Part shown: piece after piece, positions 4,416-39,202 of the stretch
Numbering within the stretch: position 1 is the stretch's first letter
Layout: each line of letters begins with the position of its first letter
Assembly (NCBI GenBank): GCA_025336685.1
Contig: GCA_025336685.1_4717.1
Source of the DNA: Escherichia coli
Lineage (GTDB): Bacteria; Pseudomonadota; Gammaproteobacteria; Enterobacterales; Enterobacteriaceae
Direction: 5' to 3' (one strand)
Length of the DNA: 64,000 bases
Made by a program: the position numbers and the translations under genes
The notes under the pieces: generated by a model
The model's database searches: none
Told to the model about the DNA's origin: nothing
Seen by the model: only the letters and a program-made list of their open reading frames with translations

Positions 4416-4447
4416 CCTTCCTCCAACCCAACAGGGAAGGAGGAAGG
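4416..4447 (-). terminator. conserved hairpin element, copy 1 (variant loop AACA)
   Basis: CCTTCCTCC-AA-CCC-AACA-GGG-AA-GGAGGAAGG immediately 3' of minus gene 4461..5354. Confidence 0.55.
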
Positions 4448-4460
4448 GATACAATGGTTA

Positions 4461-5354
4461 TTATTCGGAAACGTTGTAACCGAACACCGCTTTACCGTAG
4501 GTGTGAGTACCGTCAGCTAATGACAGCACCAGCACGTGGTTGTACGTAGCGTTAACACCCTTGTCGGTAGACTCGGTGGTAGCACCGTTGTAGACGAAAG
4601 TAGCCGTTTGCAGATTGGCTTTCAGCTCGGTGATGATCTCATCACCCACACCCGTCTGCTCTTTGATCAGCGTGGTCAGGTTACCCGCCAGGCTTTCATC
4701 GATCTTGGTTTCATCACTGGTAATAGCTTGTAAACCTGCGGTGTAGGTGCTGAAGTCTAACGGATAGGTTAACAGACGCGCTGAGGTCTTGGTACCATCG
4801 CCTTCATCAACGTAGGTTAACTTACCCAGGTTGGTAACCTTGATGATGTTAGCCAGATCCAGCGTGGTGTTATAAACTTTAACTTCAACGGAACCGTACC
4901 AAGCCAGCGAATCTTCTTTGGCCTGCAGGGTGATCGTCTGGATACCATGATCGTCGAAGGTAACCGGCGTAGCTAACGTATCGGCTTTGATGTCTTTCGT
5001 TTTATCTAAGAACTTCTCACCGGAAGGCGTGATCATACCGTAGCGTTGAGCTACAAGGTCAACCACGTCACCAATAGTGGTGTTAGCATTAACGTTAACG
5101 CGTACGGCGATCTTCTGGAACCACTTAGCCAGATCCAGACGATGATAGGTAACATCGCGGTCATTGAAGTAAGGTGTACCTTCACCAGGGCTAAGCGTTA
5201 AAGTTGCATCTGGAGCAGAATCGCTTTTGGATTTAAGAACGTATTTAAGGTCGGTGGGTTTGAAGTTGGCACCAGTGTCGGCGTTGAGTGTGTTAATCTC
5301 ATCAACGATAAGTTGCCAAGGTGTTTTTAAAGTAAGTGATACTTGAGCTGTCAT
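4461..5354 (-). CDS. hypothetical (probable virion) protein, paralogue family B
   Basis: 297-aa ORF, ATG with GAGGT RBS; shares the (Y/W)YxR(I/V/L)xLxxx aromatic block and overall size with 16415..17320, 18237..19088, 19099..20034. Confidence 0.7.
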   Translation of the reverse strand: MTAQVSLTLKTPWQLIVDEINTLNADTGANFKPTDLKYVLKSKSDSAPDATLTLSPGEGTPYFNDRDVTYHRLDLAKWFQKIAVRVNVNANTTIGDVVDLVAQRYGMITPSGEKFLDKTKDIKADTLATPVTFDDHGIQTITLQAKEDSLAWYGSVEVKVYNTTLDLANIIKVTNLGKLTYVDEGDGTKTSARLLTYPLDFSTYTAGLQAITSDETKIDESLAGNLTTLIKEQTGVGDEIITELKANLQTATFVYNGATTESTDKGVNATYNHVLVLSLADGTHTYGKAVFGYNVSE

Positions 5355-5497
5355 TTTCTACCTCTATGGTTGTTACATCACTCTCAAAAGATGTAAGTGT
5401 TTACAGAAATCAATATATTTTATATTAAATGTGAATATTATGGAGAACGACTCCGACTCTCCTTTTCGACCATCAAAAAATCAGAGGATACATAATC

Positions 5498-6040
5498 ATG
5501 GCCTTAGACTTTAACAAAGCAGCGAAATCCCTTCTGCTTGATCTGATCAACACCAAAGCAACCCGCGCACTGTCCGAAGAAGAACTGCAGTTCGGTACTC
5601 CGGCGGCATCTTCCGAAAATGCTAAGAACACCGTTATCCAGCTGAATGCTGCGGCTGAAGCAGAAAACCTGCAGGGTACTCAGCAGTTCTACTACGATCG
5701 TCTGGCTCTGTCTGACGTTTTCGCTGATGTAACCAGCGATGTTACTTTCGAACTGCCGCACGGTACTGACAGCATTAAGGCTTCTGAGCTGGTAAGCAAG
5801 CTGGTCACCAAGTTCGGTCTGGCTTCCCTGACCGGTGAAATCAATGAAGAAACCTTCCAGCTGTCCGCAGGTACTGTTGGTCAGGTAACCCTGACTGCGA
5901 TCGAGGGTGGTATGGTATATACCGGTACTCTGCAGGTTGCCCTGACCTACGCAGCAGCACCGAAAGACAATCTGGCAACCGTTCTGGCGGATAACGTAGC
6001 TGATGGCTTCGTGAAACCTGAAGTTGCTGTCGTTGGCTAA
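5498..6040 (+). CDS. Ala-rich small protein with strong codon bias (probable abundant structural or decoration protein)
   Basis: 180-aa ORF, ATG with AGAGGA RBS; near-exclusive use of preferred enteric codons (ctg, gaa, ggt, aac, ttc). Confidence 0.75.
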   Translation: MALDFNKAAKSLLLDLINTKATRALSEEELQFGTPAASSENAKNTVIQLNAAAEAENLQGTQQFYYDRLALSDVFADVTSDVTFELPHGTDSIKASELVSKLVTKFGLASLTGEINEETFQLSAGTVGQVTLTAIEGGMVYTGTLQVALTYAAAPKDNLATVLADNVADGFVKPEVAVVG

Positions 6041-6050
6041 TAAACACATA

Positions 6051-6100
6051 GAGCAATAGTATGGGTTTTGTACAGCTCGGCTATTGCTCTTCTACAATTT
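6051..6100 (+). terminator. putative hairpin terminator after 5498..6040
   Basis: 9-bp inverted repeat GAGCAATAG...CTATTGCTC followed by a T-rich stretch, just after the TAATAA stop. Confidence 0.35.
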
Positions 6101-6239
6101 GGTTGTAACAATCTGCGTGGTTGCACGCTTATCTTTCTCATTGAACGCTTCGTATGAAGCGTGGTGTTGAAAGGGTTGTGGATCTCCTCAAGCGGCCAGG
6201 GACCCAGACCAACCTGAATAAACACAAACACATGTTAAG

Positions 6240-6272
6240 CCCCTCCTCAGCCCTTATCGGGTTGGGGAGGGG
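6240..6272. terminator. conserved hairpin element, degenerate copy
   Basis: CCCCTCC-TCAG-CCC-TTATC-GGG-TTGG-GGAGGGG between convergent genes 5498..6040 and 6336..6971. Confidence 0.4.
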
Positions 6273-6335
6273 TCTTATACGTCTTTATACGTTTCGTTCG
6301 TTCTGGTGTGTTTTAGAACGGTTTACAGCAGGGTT

Positions 6336-6971
6336 TTATTCAACACTGAAACCGTTCAAACAGATGGCTTCGTAACGTTTACGTTCACGGCGTTTGCGTG
6401 CCTGCCAACCGTAAATGAACTTCTCGTCTTTCTCACGACGTTCCGCTAATTCGATGTAATAGGTGCTCTGCATGTCCAGCATTGCATCGATGAGATAATC
6501 CTTACCGGTTGCGCCACGCTTAGCGATGTAGGCATCAAGAGCCGCCAGTGTTTTGGGACCCATTGCGCCATCAGCGTCGATATTTTTCCAGTAAGTTTGG
6601 CGGTTGTTCATGACGTTCAGATAACGCTGAAGGTTCTTAACCGGTACGGTTTTGCCTGCGTTGATACCCAGGTCAAAGAGACGATCAGCCAAGAACACGG
6701 AACGTTTCATGACCTCATCAAGCTTCATCTTATCCCAGAAGTGGGTCTTGTAGATGAAGAACGCCATTTCCGTGGTAAGGTTACGCATATTACCGTCCCA
6801 CCCGAATTTCGTTTTCAGCGTGGTTTTGTACTGATCCGCAAGCGCTTTCGTAATGCCGTGGTTCGTGATCCCACCAGAGTCATCGGGATCGTCGACGTAA
6901 CCTGCTTCGATGCTAGTTTTATCACGAATGATAAATTCGCAAGTAAAATCTTTTTCAGTAATCTTGGCCAT
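6336..6971 (-). CDS. endolysin, GH108-type peptidoglycan hydrolase with probable C-terminal PG-binding domain
   Basis: 211-aa ORF, GAGGAG RBS; N-terminal EAGYVDDPDDSGGITNHGIT matches the GH108 EGGYxxDPxDxGGxTxxGIT signature. Confidence 0.75.
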   Translation of the reverse strand: MAKITEKDFTCEFIIRDKTSIEAGYVDDPDDSGGITNHGITKALADQYKTTLKTKFGWDGNMRNLTTEMAFFIYKTHFWDKMKLDEVMKRSVFLADRLFDLGINAGKTVPVKNLQRYLNVMNNRQTYWKNIDADGAMGPKTLAALDAYIAKRGATGKDYLIDAMLDMQSTYYIELAERREKDEKFIYGWQARKRRERKRYEAICLNGFSVE

Positions 6972-7097
6972 TAGAACTCCTCGTTGGAATAACGTTTTAG
7001 AGGAATAGGGAAGCCCTAGAACGCGATAAACGATTTAATCCAGGCAAACACCAGACTAAACTTTTCTAAGCGTTAGAACGCGTTCTAGAGCGCAATA

Positions 7098-9146
7098 TCA
7101 AATACCTTTGGTTCCCTTCACGTGATGTGCAATTTCTTCAACCATTGCACGCAACGCACGAAGCTGCTGGTCGTGTTCGTACCAACCGCCCAACAGAACC
7201 CCGCTATACACCATGGTGTCAAGACTTAACAGTCCTTTATCTGATACGTTGATCATTTCCGGGAACTGTTCTTGAACACGCTGTGCGATGACACCGATCT
7301 TCTCTACATCAGGATCGTAGTTGTGACGGAAACGGGCAAGCCCGCTGCGCGCCATTTCACGTAAACGTTCGCTAAGAGATTCTGGATGGTCTTTCAGGTA
7401 ACGGATGTCATGTTTACTACGCTCATCTGAACGGATGTAAGCGTTAGGAACATCGATGTTACTGTTGAAGTACAGTGCGCTACCACCACCTGCAGAGTTA
7501 CCCCAATAGAAGCGTGTGATCTCCCCACCGCCATTTTCCGTGATGATAACATGTTTACCTAAACGCGTGCCACCATTGCCGTCAACGAAGACCAGTTTGT
7601 TTCCGCTGTAAGAACCCCAGAACAAACGTGTGTCGATGATGTGCGTTGCAGCGAGACGAGCGTTACGCGGTGTAGAATACACGGTGTTAACATCTTGCTG
7701 CGCTTGCGCATCGGAAGCGATACCGTAGTTCTGTACGTTCCCTAAACCTACCTGCGCTTTCGTAACAGCATGTGGGTTATCTCGACGGTTAGCGTGAGCG
7801 TTAACCAGATCGCCCGCCAGTTTTTGAATAGCCCAGTTGGTAGACTGTGGTGTCATGTAACGGTTCGTTGCAGAACCACCTTGCGCCTCAGCTTGGTTAG
7901 CGGTTGGGTAGTTCTCAACGCTTCCTAACCCCACTTGTGCTTTAGACACTTGGTGTGGGTTGTTCTTGTCAGCGATGTGTGCATTAAGCGGAACTAACGC
8001 AAAGGTCTCAATGGACGCTTTGGTTGTGTTCGGTGCCATTAATCGGTTAGCTGCAACACCGGCACGCGCTTCATCCTCAGACGCCATTGGGTAGTCTTGT
8101 ACATTCCCTAACCCAACCTGCGCTTTGGTTACCCTGTGTGGGTTGTTGTAATCGGCTTTATGTGCGTTAAGCGGAATCAATGCGAACTGTTCAATCGCTG
8201 CAACGGTACGCAACGGCGTCATGAAACGGTTGTTCGCGGTTCCGCCCTTCGCCTCGCTATCCGAAGCGGTAGGGAAGTTATCAACGTTCCCAAGGTTAAC
8301 CTGCGCTTTGGTGACGCTATGCGGGTTATCTTTACGGTTAGCGTGAGCATCGACTAGGTCACCAGCCAGTTTAGCGATTGCCCATCCAACCGTTTGTGCG
8401 GTCATGTACCGATCAGGTGCGGTACCGGCTTCTGACTCCGCCTTGTTTGCGGTAGGGTAGTTCTGTACGTTACCTAGTCCAACTTGGGCTTTGGTGGTTT
8501 CGTGTGGGTTATCGGTACGGTTAGCATGCGCGTAATGCAGATCGGTAAGATTTTTATCCGCTGCTTGCATGTCTTTGCGTAACTGATCGATTGCTGCCCA
8601 GAGACGGTTATCGGACGCAGCGTCGCCGATAAGTATCGCGGCTTTCAGTGAATAGATCGCTAAGCAAAGATGTTCGGTACCGTAGATAGCACTAACGTGG
8701 TGGATGTGTGGTTCAGGCGGATAAAGTTCCGGTTTGTTCTTGATGTCGTCCCAGTTGATCGGACGATCGTCAAGTTTGAGTTCTTCGATAGCCTGATATA
8801 ACGCGTCAATAAGACTTACGTAAACACCACCGATGATACGATAGTCGTTAACTAACGTACCCTCGATGTCATCGTTGATGATGGCGATAGCCGCACAGAT
8901 TTCTTTACCGGCGTAAAGCGTAGCGTCCTGATACAAGAAGATGGGTTTGTAGTCCACGCCTCGCACCAGTGTCTTACCGGTAAGCTTTTCAGTGATGACC
9001 AGACTTTCGGTGAAGAACGGTCCGCCGTCGAGGGCGTAACATTTATTCTCGGTTCGTGGAACGGTGTGCTCTTCACCAACGATGTGGTTGCTATCGAGCG
9101 TGCCGGTCCAGTCCTCGGGGTACTTCAGGGTAATTGGTGTTGACAT
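7098..9146 (-). CDS. tail fibre protein with C-terminal intramolecular-chaperone (S74-like) autoprocessing domain
   Basis: 682 aa; at least 4 tandem repeats of about 40 aa (NPHxVTKAQVGLGNVxNY...); C-terminal SDERSKHDIRYL matches the SDxRxK chaperone motif; N-terminus paralogous to 12825..14978. Confidence 0.8.
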   Translation of the reverse strand: MSTPITLKYPEDWTGTLDSNHIVGEEHTVPRTENKCYALDGGPFFTESLVITEKLTGKTLVRGVDYKPIFLYQDATLYAGKEICAAIAIINDDIEGTLVNDYRIIGGVYVSLIDALYQAIEELKLDDRPINWDDIKNKPELYPPEPHIHHVSAIYGTEHLCLAIYSLKAAILIGDAASDNRLWAAIDQLRKDMQAADKNLTDLHYAHANRTDNPHETTKAQVGLGNVQNYPTANKAESEAGTAPDRYMTAQTVGWAIAKLAGDLVDAHANRKDNPHSVTKAQVNLGNVDNFPTASDSEAKGGTANNRFMTPLRTVAAIEQFALIPLNAHKADYNNPHRVTKAQVGLGNVQDYPMASEDEARAGVAANRLMAPNTTKASIETFALVPLNAHIADKNNPHQVSKAQVGLGSVENYPTANQAEAQGGSATNRYMTPQSTNWAIQKLAGDLVNAHANRRDNPHAVTKAQVGLGNVQNYGIASDAQAQQDVNTVYSTPRNARLAATHIIDTRLFWGSYSGNKLVFVDGNGGTRLGKHVIITENGGGEITRFYWGNSAGGGSALYFNSNIDVPNAYIRSDERSKHDIRYLKDHPESLSERLREMARSGLARFRHNYDPDVEKIGVIAQRVQEQFPEMINVSDKGLLSLDTMVYSGVLLGGWYEHDQQLRALRAMVEEIAHHVKGTKGI

Positions 9147-9159
9147 AACCTGGAGGTCC

Positions 9160-11754
9160 TTATAACGTGACTGTACCTAATTTGGTTGTCTTATTGAGAT
9201 TGATGACAGAGATCTGGGTATCGCTGGTCGTAATCGTTCCGATGTTAACGCGCTGCCCTTTATCATCTTCTTGCTTGTGGATGGTTAACTCCAATTCTAA
9301 CTGGTTACCGTTAGGAACAACGGAAACGTACCACGTTTTATTACCTGGCGAACTATTATAGTCTTTTAGGTTATAATGGCCTTTAGGTAAAGTCATGGCC
9401 TTACCAGCAAACAAGCAAGCGATGTCTTCGTTGATGTAGATATCGTAACCGGAAGCAGCAACGACCGTAGAAACCATGTAGACATGTTTGACGGTACCTG
9501 CGAGGTATTCGGCTACGCTTGGCCCATATGCTCTGAATACCTGTCCGCCATTGGATAAACGGTACGCTTCCCCAAGGTCGACGTACCCCAGACCCCATAC
9601 CGGATGGACGTTGTAACGACGTCCGCTGCTGGCCAAATACTCATAAAGGTCATCTACCGATAACCCAACCCACGCACCACTGGCGTTCTTAGCACCACGG
9701 AATTGAAAATCGTTTGCGTTTCCTGGAGTAGCAACGCGCACGGACATCGCCCCGGCGATTAACCAACCATCAGCGCATTTACGATACCCTAATGGTCCCC
9801 ACGCCCCCAGAGTGTTGTCAATGTTATTGATTTGGTCCCGAAGCGTGTAAGTTACCGTTGTGATGACCCCCGTTACGGTAATGTTCCCTTCCCGAGCGCT
9901 GGTCGTCACTTCAGACGTCATGATAGCCGCCTTCCTGGAGACAGGATCGTACACCGATATGAACATCAAGCAGGGGGCCCCTGTGGACGCTGGAGGAACC
10001 ACGATAGAGCCGCGTATAACGGAGTATCTCTCAAGCTTCGGCGACGTGTAGGTATCCCAACAAAGTTTGGCCGCTCTGTCGAGTTCTGCCTGCGTGATGC
10101 TTATCGATGCCCCCTTTAAGGCTAACGTATCAGGGTCGACCTCAACCCTGCTGCTTAATCTCCCTTCCTGTAGCCAGCTGCCAGTCACTATCGTCTGGTC
10201 GTCGCTCATGTGAATTGTCGCGAAACGTTCGCTCACTGAACCGCCTACGTGGACGCGACTGGTTGGCGGGAATCCCATCACATCGACCACGCTGTTCTTA
10301 TAGCGATAACTCAAATCCCAATCAGCGGTTATTAACCGCTTTTCGAAATTGCTCTGACCCCCTGGGATGCGGGATAAGACATAGACCTTGTTCTTCGCCG
10401 TGAAGCCAACGAAGCCGTGTGGACCACAGGACCCAACAACGCGGTCCTTGATGTTAATCCAGTTCCCCGCCTCGTACGCGGATATTGGGGTGAGTTTTGC
10501 AAGTTCGTCGAAGACATTACCAGCGTAGTCACCAATGCGATACGATCGAACCATCGGCGAGGCCAGGTTATCATTCACACAGCTGGTAACCAGACCGTCC
10601 TCGCGAATGACCATGTTCCCGGTAAGGTTGGCCCCACCCCATACCCAGAATCCGTCTTTATAATCACGGTCACGAGTTGACATCGTACAAGGGCCACGAA
10701 AGGACACCGAACCATCGGAGTTCACTTGTAATGACGGTGTTCCAGCATTGGGACTTAATGTCCATTGCTTCGTATCCAGGTTCAAATCGACGTACCAGAT
10801 CGTTGTCCCCTGATCGGCGATATTCACGGTACTGTTAGTGTACCATGCCGTCGTGCAGTAGATTCGCGCAATGTTACCTTTTACAACAGCGTAATTTCTA
10901 ACACCCGCACGAATAGGGACAAGCGTCGTTAATTGACTAGGGTACGCTGTATGGTTTAACACTTCCCAGAAAAGAATATGGTCGAGGTTGGTTTTCGTCG
11001 TTCCCTCAAAAATCTTTCCACTAAACCCGGTTTCTTTGGTGAACTGTACGGCCGCACCATTTTTAATGTCCGATAACATACAGGTATGTACATCGAGCCC
11101 GTTTTTCCCTTCATACGCCCACCAGACTAACAGGTACACTTTGTTTTTGTAGACGAACGTACTACAGCGCGCCATGCTGTCGGTAATACCCTCTACCGAC
11201 CCGGTACACATGGCGGCGACATGCTTCTCTACGTTGAATGTGCCGTTAGTCAGAACGATGTAGGGCTGTGTGTTCTCGTCGTTTGCGTCCATCGCGACAC
11301 CCATCATCACGCCGTGGTTATGACACCAGACTGATTGTGGGATTTTAGGTAGTGCTGTAGGGTTGTACTGGCGACTGGTACCTATGGCGGTATCGAGCAG
11401 CCCTTCACCATTGTTTTTACAGATAGCGTAATACACCCCGTTTTTCATGCTGTTGGATGCAGAGCGAAGGATGGAAACACTCCCGTCTGCTTCCTGACAG
11501 ATTCCGTAGGTACGACGTTCGGTCATGGCTATCGCGCCATCAGCTGACCCTTCGATGGCGAGAGGGAAGTAACTTTGATCGCCAATTTGTTCGATATCGG
11601 TTACGTCAATATCAATGTACTTTTCCATCTCGGTGTTGAACTCTGCGGTGCTGTACGCGCCGAGATCGCCAGCCTTTAACCCTGTTGGATTGCTTCGACT
11701 AGCGATACGTTCGGTAACGCTGGTCACCAGTTCGCTAAATTTTTTCATTGCCAT
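9160..11754 (-). CDS. large tail-associated structural protein (possible tailspike or receptor-binding protein)
   Basis: 864-aa ORF, ATG with GAGGTG RBS, placed between two tail-fibre genes; no catalytic motif recognised. Confidence 0.65.
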   Translation of the reverse strand: MAMKKFSELVTSVTERIASRSNPTGLKAGDLGAYSTAEFNTEMEKYIDIDVTDIEQIGDQSYFPLAIEGSADGAIAMTERRTYGICQEADGSVSILRSASNSMKNGVYYAICKNNGEGLLDTAIGTSRQYNPTALPKIPQSVWCHNHGVMMGVAMDANDENTQPYIVLTNGTFNVEKHVAAMCTGSVEGITDSMARCSTFVYKNKVYLLVWWAYEGKNGLDVHTCMLSDIKNGAAVQFTKETGFSGKIFEGTTKTNLDHILFWEVLNHTAYPSQLTTLVPIRAGVRNYAVVKGNIARIYCTTAWYTNSTVNIADQGTTIWYVDLNLDTKQWTLSPNAGTPSLQVNSDGSVSFRGPCTMSTRDRDYKDGFWVWGGANLTGNMVIREDGLVTSCVNDNLASPMVRSYRIGDYAGNVFDELAKLTPISAYEAGNWINIKDRVVGSCGPHGFVGFTAKNKVYVLSRIPGGQSNFEKRLITADWDLSYRYKNSVVDVMGFPPTSRVHVGGSVSERFATIHMSDDQTIVTGSWLQEGRLSSRVEVDPDTLALKGASISITQAELDRAAKLCWDTYTSPKLERYSVIRGSIVVPPASTGAPCLMFISVYDPVSRKAAIMTSEVTTSAREGNITVTGVITTVTYTLRDQINNIDNTLGAWGPLGYRKCADGWLIAGAMSVRVATPGNANDFQFRGAKNASGAWVGLSVDDLYEYLASSGRRYNVHPVWGLGYVDLGEAYRLSNGGQVFRAYGPSVAEYLAGTVKHVYMVSTVVAASGYDIYINEDIACLFAGKAMTLPKGHYNLKDYNSSPGNKTWYVSVVPNGNQLELELTIHKQEDDKGQRVNIGTITTSDTQISVINLNKTTKLGTVTL

Positions 11755-11766
11755 TATTCACCTCAG

Positions 11767-12252
11767 TTAAATCGGCGAATCAGGTAATTGGCCATCGACA
11801 ATCTCGATAGTGGCCACTTTACATGTCGCAGCGAGATGTGCTGTGCCCTGAACTTTGTTCCAGGTACCGATACGCATCACGTTTTTATAGCTGCTGTTAC
11901 TGTCGCTCAATGTGTAAACAAAACCGTTATCCGTGACAGCAAGATAGATCCAACCGGTTGATGCGCTAACACCAGAAACATCCAACGTGGTCGCGGGAAC
12001 CGTTCCTGTTATCGTGTTGTATTCCGCTTCACCTTGGCCGATGCTGATCCTCCCGTTGTTGTAGCTGGCTGCTGGAATTATTTTATTTCGGCTGAAGAAA
12101 AGGAACGGAAGATAACGTTGTGTAACAAGAGGCGTAAGTTTAGGAGCCACTTCTGTCTTAGCGTACACGTTTGTCTGCGTCGTTGTTACTGAATGAGGAT
12201 TCTTCTTGGCCAGGTAGGCTCCCCATTCAGAAAGCAATGTCGATAACTTCAT
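11767..12252 (-). CDS. hypothetical protein in tail-fibre cluster
   Basis: 161-aa ORF tightly packed between fibre-cluster genes. Confidence 0.6.
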   Translation of the reverse strand: MKLSTLLSEWGAYLAKKNPHSVTTTQTNVYAKTEVAPKLTPLVTQRYLPFLFFSRNKIIPAASYNNGRISIGQGEAEYNTITGTVPATTLDVSGVSASTGWIYLAVTDNGFVYTLSDSNSSYKNVMRIGTWNKVQGTAHLAATCKVATIEIVDGQLPDSPI

Positions 12253-12256
12253 ACGG

Positions 12257-12766
12257 CTACCCCATGTAACGTTTTTGGCCGAGGATAAAGACCTTGTTAA
12301 GGACCACCGAGGTAATGCCTGACGCGTCGCAACTCACCTGCCCAACACGAATCGCTGTTGATGAATCAGCCCCAGCACTACTGTTCCAACTCCACCCGAC
12401 CGACCCACCTTTCTGATGAATAAACAGATAGCCGGTTTTGTTCGCCCAGTCGGAAGTAAGACTTTTGATGTCTAACGTTCCTTTCGCCAGAATATAGTCG
12501 GTACCGGCGATCATGACGGGTATTTCAGGATACGAGATTACCGTACCGCTAGCGGTAACGTTGCTGATGCGATCATTACGGATATCAGTGCAATCACCGA
12601 AATACGCTACGGGGAGTATCCCCTTAGGTAGCTTTTTGTCGATTTTCGTATCGACCGTGCTTTTATCGGGCGCGTCGATTTGCGCTGCAGTGACTTGGTT
12701 AGGGTTATCCTTCCTTGCGTACCATGTCGTCATGCGAGCACCCAATTCACTCATTTTTGTGCCCAT
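12257..12766 (-). CDS. small fibre-related protein
   Basis: ORF track 12257..12772 starts at GTG; ATG two codons in has AGGA RBS; contains NPNQVTAAQI resembling the fibre repeat. Confidence 0.6.
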   Translation of the reverse strand: MGTKMSELGARMTTWYARKDNPNQVTAAQIDAPDKSTVDTKIDKKLPKGILPVAYFGDCTDIRNDRISNVTASGTVISYPEIPVMIAGTDYILAKGTLDIKSLTSDWANKTGYLFIHQKGGSVGWSWNSSAGADSSTAIRVGQVSCDASGITSVVLNKVFILGQKRYMG

Positions 12767-12780
12767 TTTCACGTCCTATC

Positions 12781-12820
12781 GAAAAAATAAAAAGATGGAA
12801 AGGTGGGCAGAACCCACCCA
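12781..12820 (-). terminator. rho-independent-type terminator after tail fibre 12825..14978
   Basis: Minus-strand hairpin GGGTGGG-TTCTG-CCCACC followed by TTTCCATCTTTTTATTTTTT. Confidence 0.5.
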
Positions 12821-12824
12821 TCCG

Positions 12825-14978: not shown

Positions 14979-15010
14979 GATGCGCCCTTTACAAGTTGTT
15001 AGTAAGTGTG

Positions 15011-15028
15011 GGATACCCTGGGGTATCC
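15011..15028. promoter_or_regulatory. inverted repeat upstream of 15083..16363
   Basis: GGATACC-CTGG-GGTATCC about 55 nt upstream of the start, followed by CTATAAAATAAG (TATAAATA-like). Confidence 0.3.
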
Positions 15029-15082
15029 TGTGTTAACAGCGGTAAAATATTACTGTAACTATAAAATAAGGGGGCCTCTCCC

Positions 15083-16363
15083 ATGTATACATTGGTAAAA
15101 ACTTACGGATTACCCGTAGGTTCTGGCACGGCCTGGACAGCACTTGAGGCGGGTGAAAGTGTCCTGAGTACGTTGTTCTCAGCGTATCAAAAACTCAAGA
15201 TCCAGGTTCATGAAAGCTATGCTGACCAGCAACAAGTTATTGATCTGTACACATTTCAATCCGAGCTTCAAAACAGCAATGACACGCTCAATGCGTGGTT
15301 GAAAGCGAAATCGGATGCACATACCAACCTTCGAGGACAGCCTGGTGAGCTGTCGATTAAAACCCACAAGCTTTATTGCCATGACGTTATTACCGTAGGC
15401 TTTCTCCCTAAAGTCGGTAATAGTGGTTATCATCCGAGCAATGCGATCCCTGAGTCGGAACGTACCGATATCCTGTTGACGAAAGCGAATACGAATTACG
15501 AAAATATCGGCAAACATTGCTTGTTCACCGTAGGCGGTTATATTCATCCTCATGTTTACGGTAAAGACGTTGGCGTCTATATCCAGGGTGGGTTCGAGAC
15601 AGCACAGCGTAGCCAAGAAAACGATATCGGCATGATTGATTTTAGCCGTATCGGGAGTTTGGAAATCCACGCCATCACAGAAGAGATGATTGCTGATTCC
15701 ACGAAGCTCTTGCCGTATAAGGACGAGATGTACTTACGGCTACCACGTAAGGTCGCCGAAGATGAAACCGTTGCGCTGGTGTTCGGGGGATATCTACACC
15801 TTCTTGACGATTGTTACACGATCGTTAGTGACACGACGGCAAAAATAAACTGCAGAAACATGTTTCTGTATGAAAGATACTTCCGCTCCCGCAAATACCT
15901 TGATTTAACGTCTCTTGGTATTCTGTTGAACGAAGAAGACCCGCAGTCCGATATTGTTGCCAATCGTTTACTGTCTGATAAGACTTTAAAAGCATGGGTG
16001 ACGCATCCCTGCAGTTTCTGGGTGTATATCAAAGCAACATCGATTCAGGTTACACAAGAACCTTTACCACGAAGTGGCGTACCAGGACAATATTTCTTAG
16101 GTAAGAAACCGGAAGGACTGATTCGAGCCGATCTCGGTGAGTTACCGGCCTACGTGCAGACCTATGAAAAACCGTTATGGGTACTTCACTCACGCTGGGG
16201 GCTTCGTAAGAACATGTTGTTTGAAAACACATTGTACAAACATACACGCGTTAAGCGGCTTAACGATACGCCTTATCTTCACCAGGTCTGGTTGAAAACG
16301 CATGCGACGTTGCAGACAGTACATAAGCTCGAATTGATCGATTCCAGTCAGAAAAACAAATAA
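15083..16363 (+). CDS. hypothetical protein (426 aa)
   Basis: ORF with ATG and AGGGGG RBS; plus-strand island inside a minus-strand block. Confidence 0.7.
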   Translation: MYTLVKTYGLPVGSGTAWTALEAGESVLSTLFSAYQKLKIQVHESYADQQQVIDLYTFQSELQNSNDTLNAWLKAKSDAHTNLRGQPGELSIKTHKLYCHDVITVGFLPKVGNSGYHPSNAIPESERTDILLTKANTNYENIGKHCLFTVGGYIHPHVYGKDVGVYIQGGFETAQRSQENDIGMIDFSRIGSLEIHAITEEMIADSTKLLPYKDEMYLRLPRKVAEDETVALVFGGYLHLLDDCYTIVSDTTAKINCRNMFLYERYFRSRKYLDLTSLGILLNEEDPQSDIVANRLLSDKTLKAWVTHPCSFWVYIKATSIQVTQEPLPRSGVPGQYFLGKKPEGLIRADLGELPAYVQTYEKPLWVLHSRWGLRKNMLFENTLYKHTRVKRLNDTPYLHQVWLKTHATLQTVHKLELIDSSQKNK

Positions 16364-16373
16364 ACAAACATAA

Positions 16374-16405
16374 CCCTCCTCCTTCCCTTACGGGTTGGAG
16401 GAGGG
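16374..16405. terminator. conserved hairpin element, copy
   Basis: CCCTCCTCC-TT-CCC-TTAC-GGG-TT-GGAGGAGGG between convergent genes 15083..16363 and 16415..17320. Confidence 0.6.
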
Positions 16406-16414
16406 AATATGCTG

Positions 16415-17320
16415 TTATGCCACGTATAACGTTAGATAACCGTCGATGAGCGTATTCATAACACTGAGTTGAAGTACAACAGCTTTACGAGCGTCTGTAC
16501 GTACACCAAATGGTAGTGTTTTGAAATGCTCTGGATCGGCTATTACTCTCGCATTCTGCAAGTTGAGCGGTCCAGGCGTTGCCGACAATACCCAGCGATC
16601 GTTGGCCGTAAGACCATCGATCTCTTCAGAGAGACCCAATTGCAGCATGTTCATTTCTGCAATTAGCGCCTCTGATTGCATATCACCTGAGGTTAACGTA
16701 TACCCATCAGTAAGTGACGCTAGAACATCATCAGACATGAACCAGTTGTACGAAACAATAGCGCCCGGGAGTTTATCACTATCTCGATCGATGAGATAAT
16801 TCAACCCAGCCAACATATTGTTGCGAATGAGGTTGTTGAGGTCGTTATGTCCTGAAGTTAACTCAACAAGTAATTGACCAACCCATACTTGGTTACCAGG
16901 TTTAGGTGTTATCGCAACATGTATCGGTGATTTGGATTTATCCAGATCCGCGTCGACAATCTCGGTTTTATTGAGAAGGATACCGTACGTTGATGCTAAG
17001 ACAGGTAATATCTCAGAGACCTTGGTTAGTGTATCTAAGGTTTCGATCTCGATGGGCCAGCGGTGCTGTCCGCCAGGCCAAATACCCAGTTTACCAAGAT
17101 CGACGCGGTTATAATAGATGTCGACAGAGTTCACCAGCCCTGAACCCGGTTGGGGATGCACGGTTAACTTGCTGTTACGCTTGTACCCTGTGCTTTCAGA
17201 AGCCTCACCGATAACCAGTTTATCCAGCGTTACGCCTCGAGCGTCGAAATCGCTATGCTTTCGAATCAGCCGAAAGAGGATTTCTTTCGATTCTAACCCT
17301 AGGATTTCACTGTACTCCAT
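16415..17320 (-). CDS. hypothetical (probable virion) protein, paralogue family B
   Basis: 301 aa, ATG with AGGGGTG RBS; YYNRVDLGKL block shared with family B. Confidence 0.7.
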   Translation of the reverse strand: MEYSEILGLESKEILFRLIRKHSDFDARGVTLDKLVIGEASESTGYKRNSKLTVHPQPGSGLVNSVDIYYNRVDLGKLGIWPGGQHRWPIEIETLDTLTKVSEILPVLASTYGILLNKTEIVDADLDKSKSPIHVAITPKPGNQVWVGQLLVELTSGHNDLNNLIRNNMLAGLNYLIDRDSDKLPGAIVSYNWFMSDDVLASLTDGYTLTSGDMQSEALIAEMNMLQLGLSEEIDGLTANDRWVLSATPGPLNLQNARVIADPEHFKTLPFGVRTDARKAVVLQLSVMNTLIDGYLTLYVA

Positions 17321-17335
17321 TTAACACCCCTTAGG

Positions 17336-17545
17336 TTACGGTAGGATTTCTGCGCCCGTCGGGCCTGCCTTACGAGCTTCCAACGCACCAAGGTCGTATT
17401 TCAACGTCAGCGTATCGTTGGTGGTAAATAGGTTGTGGTAAGTCGAAATCAGATCGGTAACCTGTGCGCCTACGATCTCGTTCATGTCGAAGGCAGAACC
17501 TTGACCATCATCAGCACGAACGATTTTGTCGCCAGCAGAGACCAT
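17336..17545 (-). CDS. small hypothetical protein
   Basis: 69-aa ORF filling a gap between two genes; weak evidence. Confidence 0.35.
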   Translation of the reverse strand: MVSAGDKIVRADDGQGSAFDMNEIVGAQVTDLISTYHNLFTTNDTLTLKYDLGALEARKAGPTGAEILP

Positions 17546-17614
17546 CCCAATTTCAGAAATAACCGCGCAGTACTCTTCAATTACCCGGAGAGTTTAGCCA
17601 CATTGAGATATTCG

Positions 17615-18220
17615 TTAATATCCTGATGGTGTCCAGACCAAAGAGACTCCAGCTATAATCGTAGTACTTCCGGTCGCTACCAGAATTCCTGTTGTTGGAA
17701 TATCCGGTCGGGGCGGGTTGAGGTTCTTGTCGGTCGGATGCCATTCGATAGTCTGAGCAACACCATCGATGTACTTGGTATATCGCATGGAGCGGACAAC
17801 GTTATCGAAATCGATGCGACGACCGTAATAACAGATGTACTTTTTACCGTTTTCCAGCGTCTCAATACGACGTAACCCAAATCTAGCACGTTCGTCCGTG
17901 GTCAAATCGTTACCAACTTCACGCATCACGAAAGGTTTGATTTTCCATGGTGAAAGATCGCTTGCTTCGTGAGCGATCGGCATCGAGGAAGGGATGCCGT
18001 TAGCGTTGCGGATGAATTCGTGACCTTGGTTGCCGATACAGAAGTAACGTACAGCAGGATTACCCTCGGGGTAAATCTTTGATTGAATCTGAAGCTTTTC
18101 GTTCAAGGTGCTGTGTTCTTCCCACGCATGAGGAAGACCGAGCGTAAGGTTCGTTTGTACTTGACCGCCGATAATCGTACGGACGATACGATCGGTAGCA
18201 CGGATTTGTGTAGAAGCCAT
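17615..18220 (-). CDS. hypothetical protein (201 aa)
   Basis: ORF with ATG and AGGAAAA RBS. Confidence 0.65.
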   Translation of the reverse strand: MASTQIRATDRIVRTIIGGQVQTNLTLGLPHAWEEHSTLNEKLQIQSKIYPEGNPAVRYFCIGNQGHEFIRNANGIPSSMPIAHEASDLSPWKIKPFVMREVGNDLTTDERARFGLRRIETLENGKKYICYYGRRIDFDNVVRSMRYTKYIDGVAQTIEWHPTDKNLNPPRPDIPTTGILVATGSTTIIAGVSLVWTPSGY

Positions 18221-18236
18221 GTCTTTTCCTATTTAA

Positions 18237-19088
18237 TCAGTTATATTGCATCAACAGGATACCGCCGTAGTTCGTGCAGTAATCTTGGCTAAGCGTAACG
18301 ATAACAGCGTTAGCGAACGCAGGGTTAACAGGATAACCCTGTGCGATAAGTTCTGTTGTTTTACCGGTTGCGAGTACGGTAGCCCCGTAAAGGTTGTTTT
18401 CGTCTTCACGACCGTTATAAACCCATGGGGTTGGCGCAACGTTGTTGAATAAGCTAACCATTGCGCTTAGGTTACCACCAACCTTTAACCCGGCAAGATC
18501 GGAACGGATTGCTGTGCAGTCTATAGCGTAACTGTAGACCAACGCTTGGATACGATTTGCGGTGTAGTACGGGAAATTGAGACCGGCCATCACCGTGGTC
18601 TTCATCATCCCCGCAATATCGCGCGCGCTATCGAGGAGGTAGAATGTAACACTTCCCGTCCAAGCCAATCCGGTTGTTTTCAATTCTACGACATGAGGGA
18701 ATGGGTATTCATTCCCTCGAACAATCGGAGAATCGACGCAGCTATCCCGATCGATAACGATTCCGTACGTCGATTGGATCAGAGGGATAAGATCGTGCGT
18801 TGTTTTAACCCCGGCGTCGATAGCAAGCTTCGGTTCCATTCCCAAGAAGAAGTCTTGGATAGGGATACGATCGTACCACACGTAGCTGCTTTCACGGTAT
18901 TGTGCTGGCGTTACTGTTGCCGAAGGCGATACCTTAGCGCGGGTGTTCCGTTTATACGCATGGTTTCCGTTTTCAGCAGCATCCGTGATCTCAAGCGCAT
19001 CGAAGTTAAAGTCGAAGTCAGGATTGGCAGCCTGAATAAGTTCGGCGACCAGTACTTTAGGACTTTTGTTTAACAATTTCTGACTCAT
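18237..19088 (-). CDS. hypothetical (probable virion) protein, paralogue family B
   Basis: 283 aa, ATG with AAGGAA RBS; WYDRIPIQDF block. Confidence 0.7.
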   Translation of the reverse strand: MSQKLLNKSPKVLVAELIQAANPDFDFNFDALEITDAAENGNHAYKRNTRAKVSPSATVTPAQYRESSYVWYDRIPIQDFFLGMEPKLAIDAGVKTTHDLIPLIQSTYGIVIDRDSCVDSPIVRGNEYPFPHVVELKTTGLAWTGSVTFYLLDSARDIAGMMKTTVMAGLNFPYYTANRIQALVYSYAIDCTAIRSDLAGLKVGGNLSAMVSLFNNVAPTPWVYNGREDENNLYGATVLATGKTTELIAQGYPVNPAFANAVIVTLSQDYCTNYGGILLMQYN

Positions 19089-19098
19089 TGTTTATTCC

Positions 19099-20034
19099 TT
19101 AGCCTTGTTCTTCTGGAGAACGACCCTGGAGGCTTGCGGTATGTCCGTCGACGTTGTAATAGAAAATCAATGGACCGCCGACAGCAGTACAGTAGTTTTC
19201 ATCCAGACTGATCTCGATACCGTATTGGTAACCTGCTCGTGCTGGAATACGTCCGCCTAACTCGCCGTTGAAAGCCACTTTAGCGTTATACAGGTTATAC
19301 GGTGCGATGTTGTCGTCTAATACCCAACGATCGGCGGTCATTTCAGCCAGAAGATCGGCGACCACCACATCGCTAATGACCGTACCTGTTACCAGCGAAG
19401 CCAGCAACTCACCGTAATCGGAAGTATCACGACTGTAGCTGTAGATTTCACCGCTAGCGCGTACGCCTTGTCCGAAGAACTTAAGACCATCAAGCTCTTT
19501 GATTGCGATAATATCATCAAGATTCGGTACACGCGATTTCATCAAGATACGAACACTTCCCGTCCAAGCCAGGCAATCAGATACGACACGGAGCAATTGT
19601 CCGTTAACGGTATCCCAGTTAAGTTCGTCGTTGACAATTTCTTCTGCGGTAAGGCCGAGACCGAAACGTTCTTTGATGATAGGCCAGATATCACGCATCT
19701 TGGTGGCATCTGGTGCATCGATAAGAATAGGTGCTACGTTACGTAGATACGCACCGATGTTAATACGATCGTAATACAGCGTCGTCGAACCTTCGTAATC
19801 GTCTAACTCGGTAAGCTTAGCGGTTGCCGTTGCCGTAATCTGGGTATCGCGCTCGTAGGCGCTTTGGTTGGTGGTTGGTGTCCCTAAAACCAATAATTCA
19901 GGGGTTAGAACATGTTCTCCGTTCTGAGGTGGGTTATCGTGGTTGATAAGACCATACACGAGATCGGATGAGGGTAAAGAGACGTCGACCGGGTAAAGTT
20001 CGGTGTCGTCAATAGTTGTTACCGTATCACTCAC
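19099..20034 (-). CDS. hypothetical (probable virion) protein, paralogue family B
   Basis: ORF track 19099..20046 (GTG); second GTG (V5) has GGAGG RBS 5 nt upstream; YYDRINIGAY block. Confidence 0.65.
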   Translation of the reverse strand: MSDTVTTIDDTELYPVDVSLPSSDLVYGLINHDNPPQNGEHVLTPELLVLGTPTTNQSAYERDTQITATATAKLTELDDYEGSTTLYYDRINIGAYLRNVAPILIDAPDATKMRDIWPIIKERFGLGLTAEEIVNDELNWDTVNGQLLRVVSDCLAWTGSVRILMKSRVPNLDDIIAIKELDGLKFFGQGVRASGEIYSYSRDTSDYGELLASLVTGTVISDVVVADLLAEMTADRWVLDDNIAPYNLYNAKVAFNGELGGRIPARAGYQYGIEISLDENYCTAVGGPLIFYYNVDGHTASLQGRSPEEQG

Positions 20035-20093
20035 GGTGACCTCCACGCCAGGAATTAATTAAAAAAGACTTTACGATTTGCTGCGCTATCACG

Positions 20094-39117: not shown

Positions 39118-39202
39118 GTTCGGCTCCTTGATTACGATAAGGATGATTGCGGTTTTGTGGTGCTGGTAGGGCCCTAAACAAAGGAACCCTACCAATATTA
39201 GG

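What the first reader, a model, noticed from the sequence alone, without database searches (positions are those of the whole stretch)
4461..20034. Dispersed four-member paralogue family of 300-aa proteins around the tail-fibre and lysis cluster
4461..5354, 16415..17320, 18237..19088 and 19099..20034 are similar in size and share an aromatic (Y/W)YxR(I/V/L)xLxxx motif about 70 aa from the N-terminus and a similar C-terminal profile. One copy lies 11 kb from the other three and is followed by a hairpin-element copy. They may be diversified receptor-binding or baseplate accessory proteins.
Basis: seen in the sequence. Interest (0 to 1): 0.45.

Follow-up and report, generated by a model that had tools for sequence, protein, structure and literature searches.

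The report
Known DUF7941 virion-fibre paralogues of Goslar-like phage
The four similar 300-residue genes are real relatives of one another, but they are the already described DUF7941 virion proteins of a close cousin of E. coli jumbo phage Goslar, proposed in 2026 to chain into long filaments at the edge of the baseplate, so the finding is correct but not new.

Summary
The four minus-strand ORFs are true, distant paralogues: 22-25% pairwise identity, and BLASTP E 1e-7 to 1e-18 against the window's 64 largest ORFs. Each matches Pfam PF25613 (DUF7941) end to end (E 1e-47 to 1e-63).

The window is 92-94% identical in DNA to Escherichia phage Goslar. The four genes are orthologues of Goslar gp22, gp31, gp33 and gp34 (91-99% aa identity). 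A fifth member was missed: 5498-6040 (+), the gp23 orthologue, which has only the N-terminal domain and linker. Goslar has five more outside the window.

The "hairpin element" is a transcription terminator. Novelty: already known.

Side result: several natural Goslar-like phages carry the same 92-codon in-frame deletion in gp22, between two 14-nt direct repeats.

The parts
4461..5354 (-). gp22 orthologue: full-length DUF7941 protein (N-terminal domain, linker, C-terminal domain), 297 aa. In Goslar it is an abundant virion protein that forms filaments.
   Evidence: PF25613 E 2e-51. 90.6% aa identity to Goslar gp22. AF2 model with mean pLDDT 85, two domains and a low-confidence linker. Goslar gp22 is at about 580 copies per virion and forms filaments in negative-stain EM (preprint).
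It is transcribed divergently from the gp22 orthologue.
   Evidence: Window-family HMM E 2.4e-11 over positions 7-173. PF25613 E 2e-20. 88.9% identity to Goslar gp23. About 2140 copies per Goslar virion.
16415..17320 (-). gp31 orthologue: full-length DUF7941 protein, 301 aa, last gene of the gp35-gp31 run.
   Evidence: PF25613 E 4e-53. 93.0% identity to Goslar gp31. About 8 copies per Goslar virion (Table S4).
18237..19088 (-). gp33 orthologue: full-length DUF7941 protein, 283 aa.
   Evidence: PF25613 E 4e-47. 96.5% identity to Goslar gp33. About 112 copies per Goslar virion.
19099..20034 (-). gp34 orthologue: full-length DUF7941 protein, 311 aa (GTG start), next to the wedge gene.
   Evidence: PF25613 E 4e-63. 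99.0% identity to Goslar gp34. About 27 copies per Goslar virion. SD GGAGG lies upstream of the GTG at 20034.
17336..18220 (-). gp32 orthologue (phiKZ gp139-like baseplate spoke/band protein), encoded between the DUF7941 genes. It is not a family member. In this sequence its frame is broken by a cluster of small indels, giving pieces of 201 aa and 69 aa.
   Evidence: Alignment to Goslar gp32. 36% identity to phiKZ gp139. Role as a spoke of five dimers: preprint and phiKZ atlas.
20094..22505 (-). gp35 orthologue, an upper baseplate wedge protein (phiKZ gp128 homologue), first gene of the run that ends with the gp31 orthologue.
   Evidence: 97.9% identity to Goslar gp35. 35% identity over 619 aa to phiKZ gp128. 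Wedge assignment from the preprint.
4416..4447 (-). The "hairpin element" after the gp22 orthologue: a 9-bp G+C-rich stem with an inner 3-bp stem, followed by a U-rich tail. It is an intrinsic-terminator-type hairpin.
   Evidence: Fold -28.4 kcal/mol, z -6.7. Pattern search.
16375..16404 (-). The same hairpin element after the gp31 orthologue, ending the gp35-gp31 transcription unit.
   Evidence: Fold -31 kcal/mol, z -5.5. The equivalent Goslar site is annotated as a putative terminator. Six copies in the window, all at ends of gene runs.
4849..4862 (-). Downstream copy of an exact 14-nt direct repeat CTGGATCTGGCTAA inside the gp22 orthologue (codons L165-D-L-A-N, start of the linker).
5125..5138 (-). 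Upstream copy of the same 14-nt repeat (codons L73-D-L-A-K, directly after the Y-x-R motif). It lies 276 nt from the other copy. Natural variants have lost exactly the interval between the two.

Best explanation
The window comes from a chimallivirus (nucleus-forming jumbo phage) closely related to Escherichia phage Goslar. The four ORFs, plus a fifth truncated one at 5498-6040, are orthologues of Goslar gp22, gp31, gp33, gp34 and gp23. They are members of the DUF7941 (PF25613) family of virion proteins.

The most likely mechanism is the one proposed for Goslar. The linker (with the C-terminal domain) of one protomer docks on the N-terminal domain of the next. The proteins therefore chain head to tail into flexible homo- and hetero-filaments. 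These are anchored at the peripheral baseplate, at the outer end of the gp32 spokes, and extend outwards to increase first contact with host cells.

I infer a division of labour. The low-copy, slowly evolving members encoded beside the wedge and spoke genes (gp34, gp33, gp31) are the baseplate-proximal adaptors. The very abundant, faster-evolving divergent pair gp22/gp23 builds the bulk filament.

Shown here: homology, family membership, domain layout, orthology and purifying selection. Shown by others for the orthologues: presence and copy number in virions, gp22 filaments in vitro, and phiKZ gp127 at the baseplate edge. Inferred: filaments on the virion, anchoring in Goslar-like phages, the role in host recognition, and the adaptor versus bulk split.
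For: Homology:
- Pairwise BLASTP.
- PF25613 full-length hits at E 1e-47 to 1e-63, and gp23h at E 2e-20.
- A large family: 2452 cluster representatives at E<=1e-3.

Orthology:
- 92-94% DNA identity to Goslar with the same gene order.
- 89-99% aa identity.

Structure:
- AF2 model with pLDDT 85, two domains, and a linker dip at residues 171-190.

Location: in phiKZ a band of five gp139 dimers ends at gp127 (PMC13250141). Here the gp139 homologue is encoded between the DUF7941 genes.

Goslar preprint 10.64898/2026.04.21.720040:
- Ten DUF7941 proteins in virions.
- Copy numbers of about 8 (gp31), 27 (gp34), 112 (gp33), 580 (gp22) and 2140 (gp23).
- gp22 filaments by negative-stain EM.
- AF3 head-to-tail dimers.

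Independent support for a linker-mediated interface: among 60 gp22 orthologues the most conserved stretch is the linker, residues 166-200. The linker motif D-L-x-x-h-h-x-x-x-x-L-x-G-L is shared by all five paralogues, including the truncated one.

Support for linear chaining: family members exist with 2 or 3 N-terminal modules fused in tandem, or with two C-terminal modules.

Selection: dN/dS is 0.055 (gp34h) and 0.086 (gp33h), like neighbouring baseplate genes. It is 0.18 (gp31h), 0.20 (gp22h) and 0.35 (gp23h), higher than the neighbourhood median of about 0.06 but still purifying.
Against: - No density for any DUF7941 protein was seen in the Goslar baseplate maps. Attachment to the virion rests on mass spectrometry of CsCl-purified particles, and self-assembling filaments could co-purify with those.
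- The head-to-tail interface is a prediction. I could not run multimer predictions.
- The fibre cloud and its role in adsorption are explicitly called speculative by the authors.
- gp31 evolves relatively fast (dN/dS 0.18) although it is low-copy, which fits the adaptor versus bulk split imperfectly.
- Natural phages that lack residues 73-164 of gp22 show that more than half of its N-terminal domain is dispensable, or that gp22 is not essential.
- phiKZ gp143, counted as a DUF7941 protein by the preprint, has an experimentally shown lysis-timing role.
- The preprint's statement that the domain is exclusive to chimalliviruses conflicts with a report of DUF7941 in Spiroplasma Spaid-like proteins (PMC13375240).
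Confidence: 0.6

Rival explanations
1. The proteins are ordinary fixed building blocks of the peripheral baseplate, caps or cross-links at the ends of the spokes as modelled for phiKZ gp127. They do not form long filaments on the virion. On this view the high mass-spectrometry copy numbers and the in-vitro filaments reflect self-aggregation or co-purifying polymer.
For: The only experimental placement of a family member is one gp127 per star-lobe complex in phiKZ (six lobes per baseplate), in a compact position. No filament density was seen in Goslar maps. gp31h, gp33h and gp34h are encoded with wedge and spoke genes. gp33h and gp34h are as conserved as baseplate proteins.
Against: About 580 and 2140 copies of gp22 and gp23 per virion far exceed any six- or twelve-fold baseplate site. 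Purified gp22 forms filaments hundreds of nm long. Natural tandem fusions of the N-terminal module and the strongly conserved linker fit a chain better than a cap.
Confidence: 0.22
2. The short members are themselves receptor-binding proteins that have diversified to recognise different host surface structures.
For: They sit among tail-fibre-like genes: the gp25h and gp29h paralogues, one with a Peptidase_S74 chaperone domain, and a strongly diverged gp26h. gp22h, gp23h and gp31h evolve 3-6 times faster at non-synonymous sites than the local median. The most variable patches of the gp22 orthologues are surface-type loops at 121-135 and 205-225.
Against: There is no binding-domain signature in Pfam and no fold match to any receptor-binding protein. 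dN/dS is well below 1 in all five. In Goslar the recognisable carbohydrate-binding, glycosidase and LRR domains are carried by other, longer family members outside this window. The paralogues are ancient (22-25% identity) and each is conserved across Goslar-like phages, which indicates fixed distinct structural roles rather than recent diversification.
Confidence: 0.1
3. For the truncated member only (5498-6040, beside the endolysin gene): it is a cytoplasmic regulator of lysis timing acting on the holin, as shown for phiKZ gp143. It may do this in addition to, or instead of, being a virion subunit.
For: phiKZ gp143 is 177 aa and lies directly upstream of the endolysin gp144. It advances holin triggering by 10-15 min and can block a truncated holin (PMC12894885). 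It is dispensable in TnSeq. The Goslar preprint counts gp143 as a DUF7941 protein. It carries a TYRRLDF motif like the TYHRLDL of gp22h. The gp23 orthologue has the same size and architecture and also neighbours the endolysin (GH108 + PG_binding_3).
Against: gp143 reaches only 18.3 bits on PF25613, against a cut-off of 27. BLASTP of gp23h against gp143 is not significant (E 4.5). No gp142 homologue and no ORF with a transmembrane segment lies near gp23h in the window. gp23h is on the opposite strand from the endolysin. Goslar gp23 is the most abundant unmodelled virion protein.
Confidence: 0.08

Closest known systems
Goslar gp22, gp23, gp31, gp33, gp34 (DUF7941 proteins; bioRxiv 10.64898/2026.04.21.720040)
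   Same: Direct orthologues with 89-99% aa identity, the same lengths, the same gene order and strands, and the same terminators.
   Different: There are only allelic differences; gp22h and gp23h are the most diverged (about 10%). The neighbouring spoke gene is frame-broken in this sequence, and the gp26 orthologue is only 52% identical.
phiKZ gp127 (PDB 9xqd chain 0; outer peripheral baseplate) and its partner gp126
   Different: Only about 20-23% identity. phiKZ has about three members against ten in Goslar. In phiKZ the spoke gene gp139 is not interleaved with them. Only residues 1-150 of gp127 are modelled experimentally.
phiKZ gp143, holin-specific lysis regulator (PMC12894885)
   Same: About 180 aa, two small globular lobes, a Y-R-R-L-D-F motif, and a position next to the endolysin gene. 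In size and position it resembles the gp23 orthologue.
   Different: It is below the Pfam threshold, has no significant pairwise similarity to gp23h, and there is no adjacent holin in the window. The function demonstrated for it is cytoplasmic, not structural.
phiKZ gp131-gp135 paralogous fibre proteins (shared N-terminal domain, different C-termini)
   Same: The same design principle: a set of paralogues at the baseplate periphery that share an attachment module. PHROG hits of the N-terminal half to 500-730-aa families suggest similar modular fusions.
   Different: I did not test homology to gp131-135. Those form a hetero-hexameric fibre docked on the star lobes, not a head-to-tail polymer.

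Membership tests
DUF7941 (Pfam PF25613) chimallivirus virion proteins | Match to the PF25613 profile above the gathering score (27 bits) | tested here: met
   175, 181, 162 and 214 bits over profile positions about 3-275 of 276 for the four ORFs. 73.9 bits over positions 4-173 for 5498-6040.
DUF7941 (Pfam PF25613) chimallivirus virion proteins | N-terminal globular domain, flexible linker, C-terminal globular domain | tested here: met
   AF2 model of the gp22 orthologue has mean pLDDT 85, confident blocks at 11-170 and 191-297, and a dip to 55-63 at 171-190. Only this one of the four was modelled.
DUF7941 (Pfam PF25613) chimallivirus virion proteins | Fold of the N-terminal domain as in the solved member phiKZ gp127 | tested here: met
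DUF7941 (Pfam PF25613) chimallivirus virion proteins | Conserved aromatic-Y-x-R-h-x-h motif in the N-terminal domain | tested here: met
   Y and R are invariant in alignments A1 and A3. They are present in 93% and 98% of 101 family sequences.
DUF7941 (Pfam PF25613) chimallivirus virion proteins | Encoded by a chimallivirus | tested here: met
   92-94% DNA identity and collinear gene order with Goslar over the tested stretches.
DUF7941 (Pfam PF25613) chimallivirus virion proteins | Present in purified virions / associated with the peripheral baseplate | not testable with these tools
   Known only for the Goslar orthologues (mass spectrometry) and for phiKZ gp127 (cryo-EM).
DUF7941 (Pfam PF25613) chimallivirus virion proteins | Head-to-tail self-assembly into filaments | not testable with these tools
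   No multimer prediction was available. The indirect evidence is the linker being the most conserved segment and natural tandem-module fusions. Experimental evidence exists only for Goslar gp22.
phiKZ gp143-type holin regulator (considered for 5498-6040 only) | Significant sequence similarity to phiKZ gp143 | tested here: not met
   BLASTP E 4.5. gp143 itself reaches only 18.3 bits on PF25613.
phiKZ gp143-type holin regulator (considered for 5498-6040 only) | Placed in a lysis cassette next to a class III holin with a long cytoplasmic N-terminus | tested here: not met
   There is no gp142 homologue in the window. No hydrophobic segment occurs in the neighbouring small ORFs or in gp27h/gp28h; the highest 19-residue Kyte-Doolittle mean is 1.37. 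Only the endolysin is adjacent.
Classical tail fibre / receptor-binding proteins | Recognisable fibre or receptor-binding domain (beta-helix, collagen or coiled-coil shaft, carbohydrate-binding module, Peptidase_S74 chaperone) | tested here: not met
   There is no such Pfam domain in the four ORFs and no structural match to such proteins. By contrast the neighbour at 7098-9146 has Peptidase_S74.

The most novel reading that the evidence does not exclude
The two exact 14-nt direct repeats inside the gp22 orthologue act as a recurrent in-frame deletion hotspot. The deletion repeatedly produces viable Goslar-like phages whose second most abundant filament subunit lacks residues 73-164, more than half of the N-terminal domain. 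If this short form is selected rather than merely tolerated, it would be a heritable way of remodelling the proposed fibre cloud, changing filament length, branching or capping, and hence adsorption behaviour.

Shown: the exact deletion occurs in four sequence clusters, each closest to a different full-length allele. One lies in a 243-kb contig at the syntenic locus with a single hybrid repeat.

Not shown: any phenotype or selection. The repeat is imperfect in more distant orthologues, which argues for accident rather than design.
Probability: 0.12. Interest if true: 0.45.

Novelty: already known. Interest (0 to 1): 0.15.

Why it matters
For this window it matters little. The family has a Pfam entry (PF25613), and its members in the nearest relative, Goslar, were described gene by gene in 2026, with virion copy numbers, in-vitro filaments and a working model.

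The genes are still useful as annotation. They mark the peripheral-baseplate and host-recognition module of a Goslar-like phage. Together with the strongly diverged gp26 orthologue, they show where host-range differences between Goslar-like phages are likely to lie.

The function of the family remains a hypothesis. The small additions made here give cheap handles for testing the filament model:
- the linker is the most constrained segment;
- natural tandem fusions of the N-terminal module exist;
- the low-copy gp33/gp34 orthologues evolve more slowly than the abundant gp22/gp23 orthologues (gp31 does not fit this split);
- natural gp22 deletion variants recur.

Tried and rejected
- **Chance or composition-only similarity:** rejected.
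- **More members inside the window:** an exhaustive HMM search of all 696 stop-to-stop ORFs of at least 40 aa found only the five. The Goslar genes gp86, gp91-93 and gp161 lie beyond the window end.
- **The split ORFs 17336-17545 and 17615-18220 as a disrupted fifth paralogue:** rejected. They are the gp32 (spoke) orthologue, which is not DUF7941.
- **RNA genes in the 750-nt non-coding gap below the gp22 orthologue:** no Rfam family over the whole window and no tRNA. I did not look further.
- **Simple terminator scan:** it missed the hairpin element because the loop exceeds 8 nt. Folding and pattern search recovered it.
- **NCBIfam:** no names for any of the five.
- **Pfam on neighbours:** nothing beyond Peptidase_S74 and the endolysin domains.
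- **Profile search in the word-indexed protein collection:** swamped by gp22 orthologues, so it added little diversity. The exhaustive representative search was used instead.
- **My 4-sequence HMM on phiKZ gp143:** it does not detect gp143 (E 0.04-0.1), so I do not transfer the lysis-regulator function.
- **A DNA-level conserved switch at the 14-nt repeat:** rejected. Three more distant orthologues each have two mismatches between the copies, and 34 of 61 orthologues have Ser instead of Ala at the second site.
- **Diversifying selection:** not supported. All dN/dS values are below 0.35, though this is a single pairwise comparison.

Full report
**1. The observation**

The four ORFs are present exactly as described, all on the minus strand: 4461-5354 (297 aa), 16415-17320 (301 aa), 18237-19088 (283 aa) and 19099-20034 (311 aa). 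The last starts at a GTG preceded by GGAGG.

They are real but distant paralogues. Pairwise BLASTP gives 22-25% identity and 41-75 bits. Against the 64 largest stop-to-stop ORFs of the window they hit only one another, at E 1e-7 to 1e-18.

Each matches Pfam PF25613 (DUF7941) over essentially the whole 276-position profile, at E 2e-51, 4e-53, 4e-47 and 4e-63 against a gathering score of 27 bits. Each also matches phrog_1037, "virion structural protein".

It is genuine:
- Y and R are invariant in a 25-sequence alignment.
- In 101 diverse family members R is present in 98% and Y in 93%, which puts both among the four most informative columns.

**2.

An HMM built from the four, run against every stop-to-stop ORF of at least 40 aa in the window, finds one more member. 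It is 5498-6040 on the plus strand (180 aa), covering only the N-terminal domain and linker (E 2.4e-11; PF25613 E 2e-20). It is transcribed divergently from the 4461-5354 gene.

The ORF pair 17336-17545 and 17615-18220 lies between two of the paralogues but is not a member. It is a different gene whose frame is broken.

**3. Identity of the window**

The window is 92% identical over 4000-21000, and 94% identical over 40000-64000, to Escherichia phage vB_EcoM_Goslar, a chimallivirus. The gene order is the same.

The five genes are orthologues of Goslar gp22, gp23, gp31, gp33 and gp34. Their aa identities are 90.6, 88.9, 93.0, 96.5 and 99.0%.

The window corresponds to roughly 11-74 kb of Goslar. 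The other Goslar family members (gp86, gp91, gp92, gp93, gp161) therefore lie outside it.

**4. What is already known**

A bioRxiv preprint of 22 April 2026 (10.64898/2026.04.21.720040) reports the cryo-EM structure and proteome of the Goslar virion and describes this family. It reports the following:
- There are ten DUF7941 proteins, all detected in virions.
- Estimated copies per virion are gp31 about 8, gp34 about 27, gp33 about 112, gp22 about 580 and gp23 about 2140.
- AlphaFold 3 predicts head-to-tail oligomers, with the linker of one protomer docking on the N-terminal domain of the next.
- Purified gp22 forms filaments and bundles hundreds of nm long in negative stain.

The authors propose a "fibre cloud" anchored on the peripheral baseplate that aids first contact with the host. 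The longer members would carry the carbohydrate-binding, glycosidase and LRR domains. They call this model speculative, and they saw no DUF7941 density in their Goslar maps.

The structural atlas of phiKZ (PMC13250141) places the homologue gp127 at the outer end of a band of five gp139 dimers in the outer peripheral baseplate. The Goslar gp139 homologue is gp32, which forms the baseplate spokes, and gp35 is an upper wedge protein. In this window the gene order gp35h-gp34h-gp33h-gp32h-gp31h, closed by a terminator, therefore interleaves three DUF7941 genes with the wedge and spoke genes.

**5. Independent checks made here**

*Solved structures.* A profile of the five window proteins finds one solved relative, phiKZ gp127 (9xqd chain 0), at E 4e-16 over the full length.

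*Family size and architecture.* The exhaustive search of 1.84 billion cluster representatives finds 2452 members at E<=1e-3 and 982 at E<=1e-10. The best 146 were classified with sub-profiles:
- 96 have an N-terminal and a C-terminal module;
- 25 have the N-terminal module alone (six of these also scored on the linker sub-profile);
- 12 have two N-terminal modules in tandem;
- 6 have three N-terminal modules in tandem;
- 5 have one N-terminal and two C-terminal modules;
- 2 have two N-terminal modules and one C-terminal module;
- several of the above also carry long C-terminal extensions (up to 1970 aa).

Tandem fusions of the N-terminal module are what a module that naturally strings into linear arrays would be expected to produce.

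*Conservation along gp22.* Among 60 gp22 orthologues the most conserved segment is the "disordered" linker, residues 166-200. The most variable segments are 121-135 and 205-225. A motif D-L-x-x-h-h-x-x-x-x-L-x-G-L at the start of the linker is shared by all five paralogues. Strong constraint on a segment with no confident fold of its own fits an intermolecular docking element.

*Selection.* Pairwise Nei-Gojobori dN/dS against Goslar:

| Gene | dN/dS |
|---|---|
| gp34h | 0.055 |
| gp33h | 0.086 |
| gp31h | 0.18 |
| gp22h | 0.20 |
| gp23h | 0.35 |
| Median of the 37 genes compared | about 0.08 (most baseplate and capsid genes 0.02-0.09) |

All five are under purifying selection, so they are functional genes. 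The two abundant members evolve faster. There is no sign of diversifying selection, though one pairwise comparison is a blunt test.

**6. Mechanism and confidence**

Membership of DUF7941 and orthology to the Goslar genes are near certain.

The head-to-tail filament model anchored at the spoke ends is the best available explanation. It is consistent with everything I could test. It still rests on predictions, on in-vitro filaments of one member, and on mass spectrometry. I put it at about 0.6.

My own inference is a division of labour. The low-copy members encoded beside the wedge and spoke genes would be baseplate-proximal adaptors, analogous to phiKZ gp127 and gp126 next to gp128. gp22 and gp23 would be the bulk polymer. 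The relatively fast evolution of gp31h does not fit this neatly.

**7. Rivals**

(a) *Fixed baseplate caps, with no long filaments on the virion.* This is supported by the single compact gp127 site in phiKZ and by the absence of density in Goslar. It is contradicted by copy numbers in the hundreds to thousands and by the in-vitro filaments.

(b) *The short members are receptor-binding proteins themselves.* There is no binding domain, no fold match, and dN/dS is well below 1.

(c) *For the gp23 orthologue only: a lysis-timing regulator.*
- In favour: phiKZ gp143 is 177 aa, lies directly before the endolysin, and was shown experimentally to be a holin-specific lysis regulator (PMC12894885). It is dispensable in TnSeq. 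The Goslar preprint counts it as a DUF7941 protein.
- Against: gp143 reaches only 18.3 bits on PF25613 and has no significant similarity to the gp23 orthologue (E 4.5). The window has no gp142 homologue and no transmembrane ORF near the endolysin.
- The endolysin itself (6336-6971, GH108 plus PG_binding_3) is the only lysis gene I can recognise in the "lysis cluster".

**8. The hairpin element**

The hairpin after 4461-5354 lies at 4416-4447. It has a stem CCTTCCTCC/GGAGGAAGG with an inner 3-bp stem and a tail UUUAUGUUUGUGUUU. It folds at -28.4 kcal/mol (z -6.7).

The same element follows 16415-17320 at 16375-16404 (-31 kcal/mol, z -5.5). Goslar's record annotates that second site as a putative terminator.

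The window has six copies: 4416-4447, 6242-6270, 16375-16404, 36727-36756, 51311-51342 and 62279-62308. Each sits at the end of a gene run, and 0.3 copies are expected by chance. It is a terminator family and is not specifically tied to the paralogues.

**9. Side result: a recurrent deletion in gp22**

The gp22 orthologue contains an exact 14-nt direct repeat, CTGGATCTGGCTAA, at 5125-5138 and 4849-4862, 276 nt apart. The copies encode L-D-L-A directly after the Y-x-R motif and again at the start of the linker. Goslar and two IMG/VR relatives have the same two copies.

Four protein clusters of 205-207 aa (P0060, P0061, P0062, P0065) lack exactly residues 73-164. One of them lies at the syntenic locus of a 243-kb contig (62x coverage), with a single hybrid repeat copy at the junction.

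Over the 205 shared columns each short variant is closest to a different full-length allele (98.0, 93.7, 95.1 and 93.2%). The variants are only 84-91% identical to one another. The deletion has therefore arisen, or been transferred, several times.

An AF2 model of the short form keeps the secondary structure of the first 72 residues at lower confidence, and keeps a confident C-terminal domain.

In more distant orthologues the repeat has two mismatches, and 34 of 61 orthologues have Ser for Ala at the second site. I therefore read this as an accidental recombination hotspot whose product is tolerated, not as a conserved switch. [quoted passage not shown]

**10. Verdict**

The finding is already known. 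Interest is low.

Noticed in passing
window 4849-4862 and 5125-5138 (within 4461-5354, minus strand); L004 6001-6624: An exact 14-nt direct repeat lies 276 nt apart inside the gp22 orthologue. Natural Goslar-like phages carry the precise 92-codon in-frame deletion between the copies (P0060, P0061, P0062, P0065). Each deleted allele is closest to a different full-length allele, so the deletion is recurrent. The repeat is imperfect in more distant orthologues.
   Followed up: partly
window 17336-18220 (minus): The gp32 orthologue (baseplate spoke protein, phiKZ gp139-like) is split into 201-aa and 69-aa ORFs. The cause is a cluster of small indels (-1, -2, +1, +2) within about 100 nt of an otherwise 96%-identical gene, with stops in both affected frames. 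This may be sequencing error or a real pseudogene; an essential spoke gene makes error more likely.
   Followed up: partly
window 34432-35050, 56957-58020, 58055-59255, 59262-62253: The orthologues of Goslar gp42, gp61, gp62 and gp63 align in two or three tblastn pieces in different frames. The window therefore carries several more frame breaks relative to Goslar, consistent with a draft-quality sequence.
   Followed up: no
window 9160-11754 (minus), also 11767-12252: The gp26 orthologue is only 52% identical in protein to Goslar gp26 (dS saturated), inside a region that is otherwise about 90-99% identical. The adjacent gp27 orthologue is 84% identical with dS 1.3. This is a replaced or strongly diverged module among the fibre-like genes and a likely host-range determinant. 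It has no Pfam domain.
   Followed up: partly
window 7098-9146 and 12825-14978 (minus): The gp25 and gp29 orthologues are paralogues of each other (38% identity over 484 aa). The first carries a Peptidase_S74 intramolecular chaperone domain, so they are fibre or spike-like proteins.
   Followed up: partly
window 870-1703, 1781-2671, 2927-3709 (minus): This is a second family of about 260-300-aa paralogues (31-33% identity), unrelated to DUF7941 and without Pfam hits. Only the third has a Goslar counterpart (gp21). The other two lie in about 1.8 kb that has no Goslar counterpart in the tblastn comparison.
   Followed up: partly
window 38215-39195 and 39203-39976 (minus): Two ORFs (326 and 257 aa, sharing a 55-residue similar stretch) occupy about 1.7 kb between the gp46 and gp48 orthologues, where Goslar has only the 62-aa gp47. 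This is an insertion relative to Goslar. No Pfam domain.
   Followed up: partly
window 3710-4460: This 750-nt stretch between the gp21 and gp22 orthologues has no ORF of 60 aa or more spanning it. It contains several further inverted repeats, for example GATAACTCTAAG...CTTAGAGTTATC around 4180-4250 and a CCCC-TTCG-GGGG hairpin near 4290. It diverges from Goslar below about 4066. No Rfam or tRNA hit.
   Followed up: partly
window 4416-4447, 6242-6270, 16375-16404, 36727-36756, 51311-51342, 62279-62308: Six copies of a conserved two-tier hairpin (CCTCCTCC..CCC-GTAA-GGG..GGAGGAGG) lie at the ends of gene runs, against 0.3 expected by chance. They are terminator-type elements, and three of the equivalent Goslar sites checked are annotated as terminators.
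   Followed up: partly
window 51356-52642 and 55991-56884 (minus): The gp56 orthologue (a PF12699-type inner-body paralogue in Goslar) is only 75.5% identical. The gp60 orthologue is 79% identical with dN/dS about 0.6, the highest in the window. Both are outliers against neighbours at 95-100%.
   Followed up: no
literature: The Goslar preprint states that DUF7941 is exclusive to chimalliviruses. PMC13375240 reports the domain (via InterPro) in Spaid-like secreted proteins of Spiroplasma. The two statements conflict, and I did not test either.
   Followed up: no
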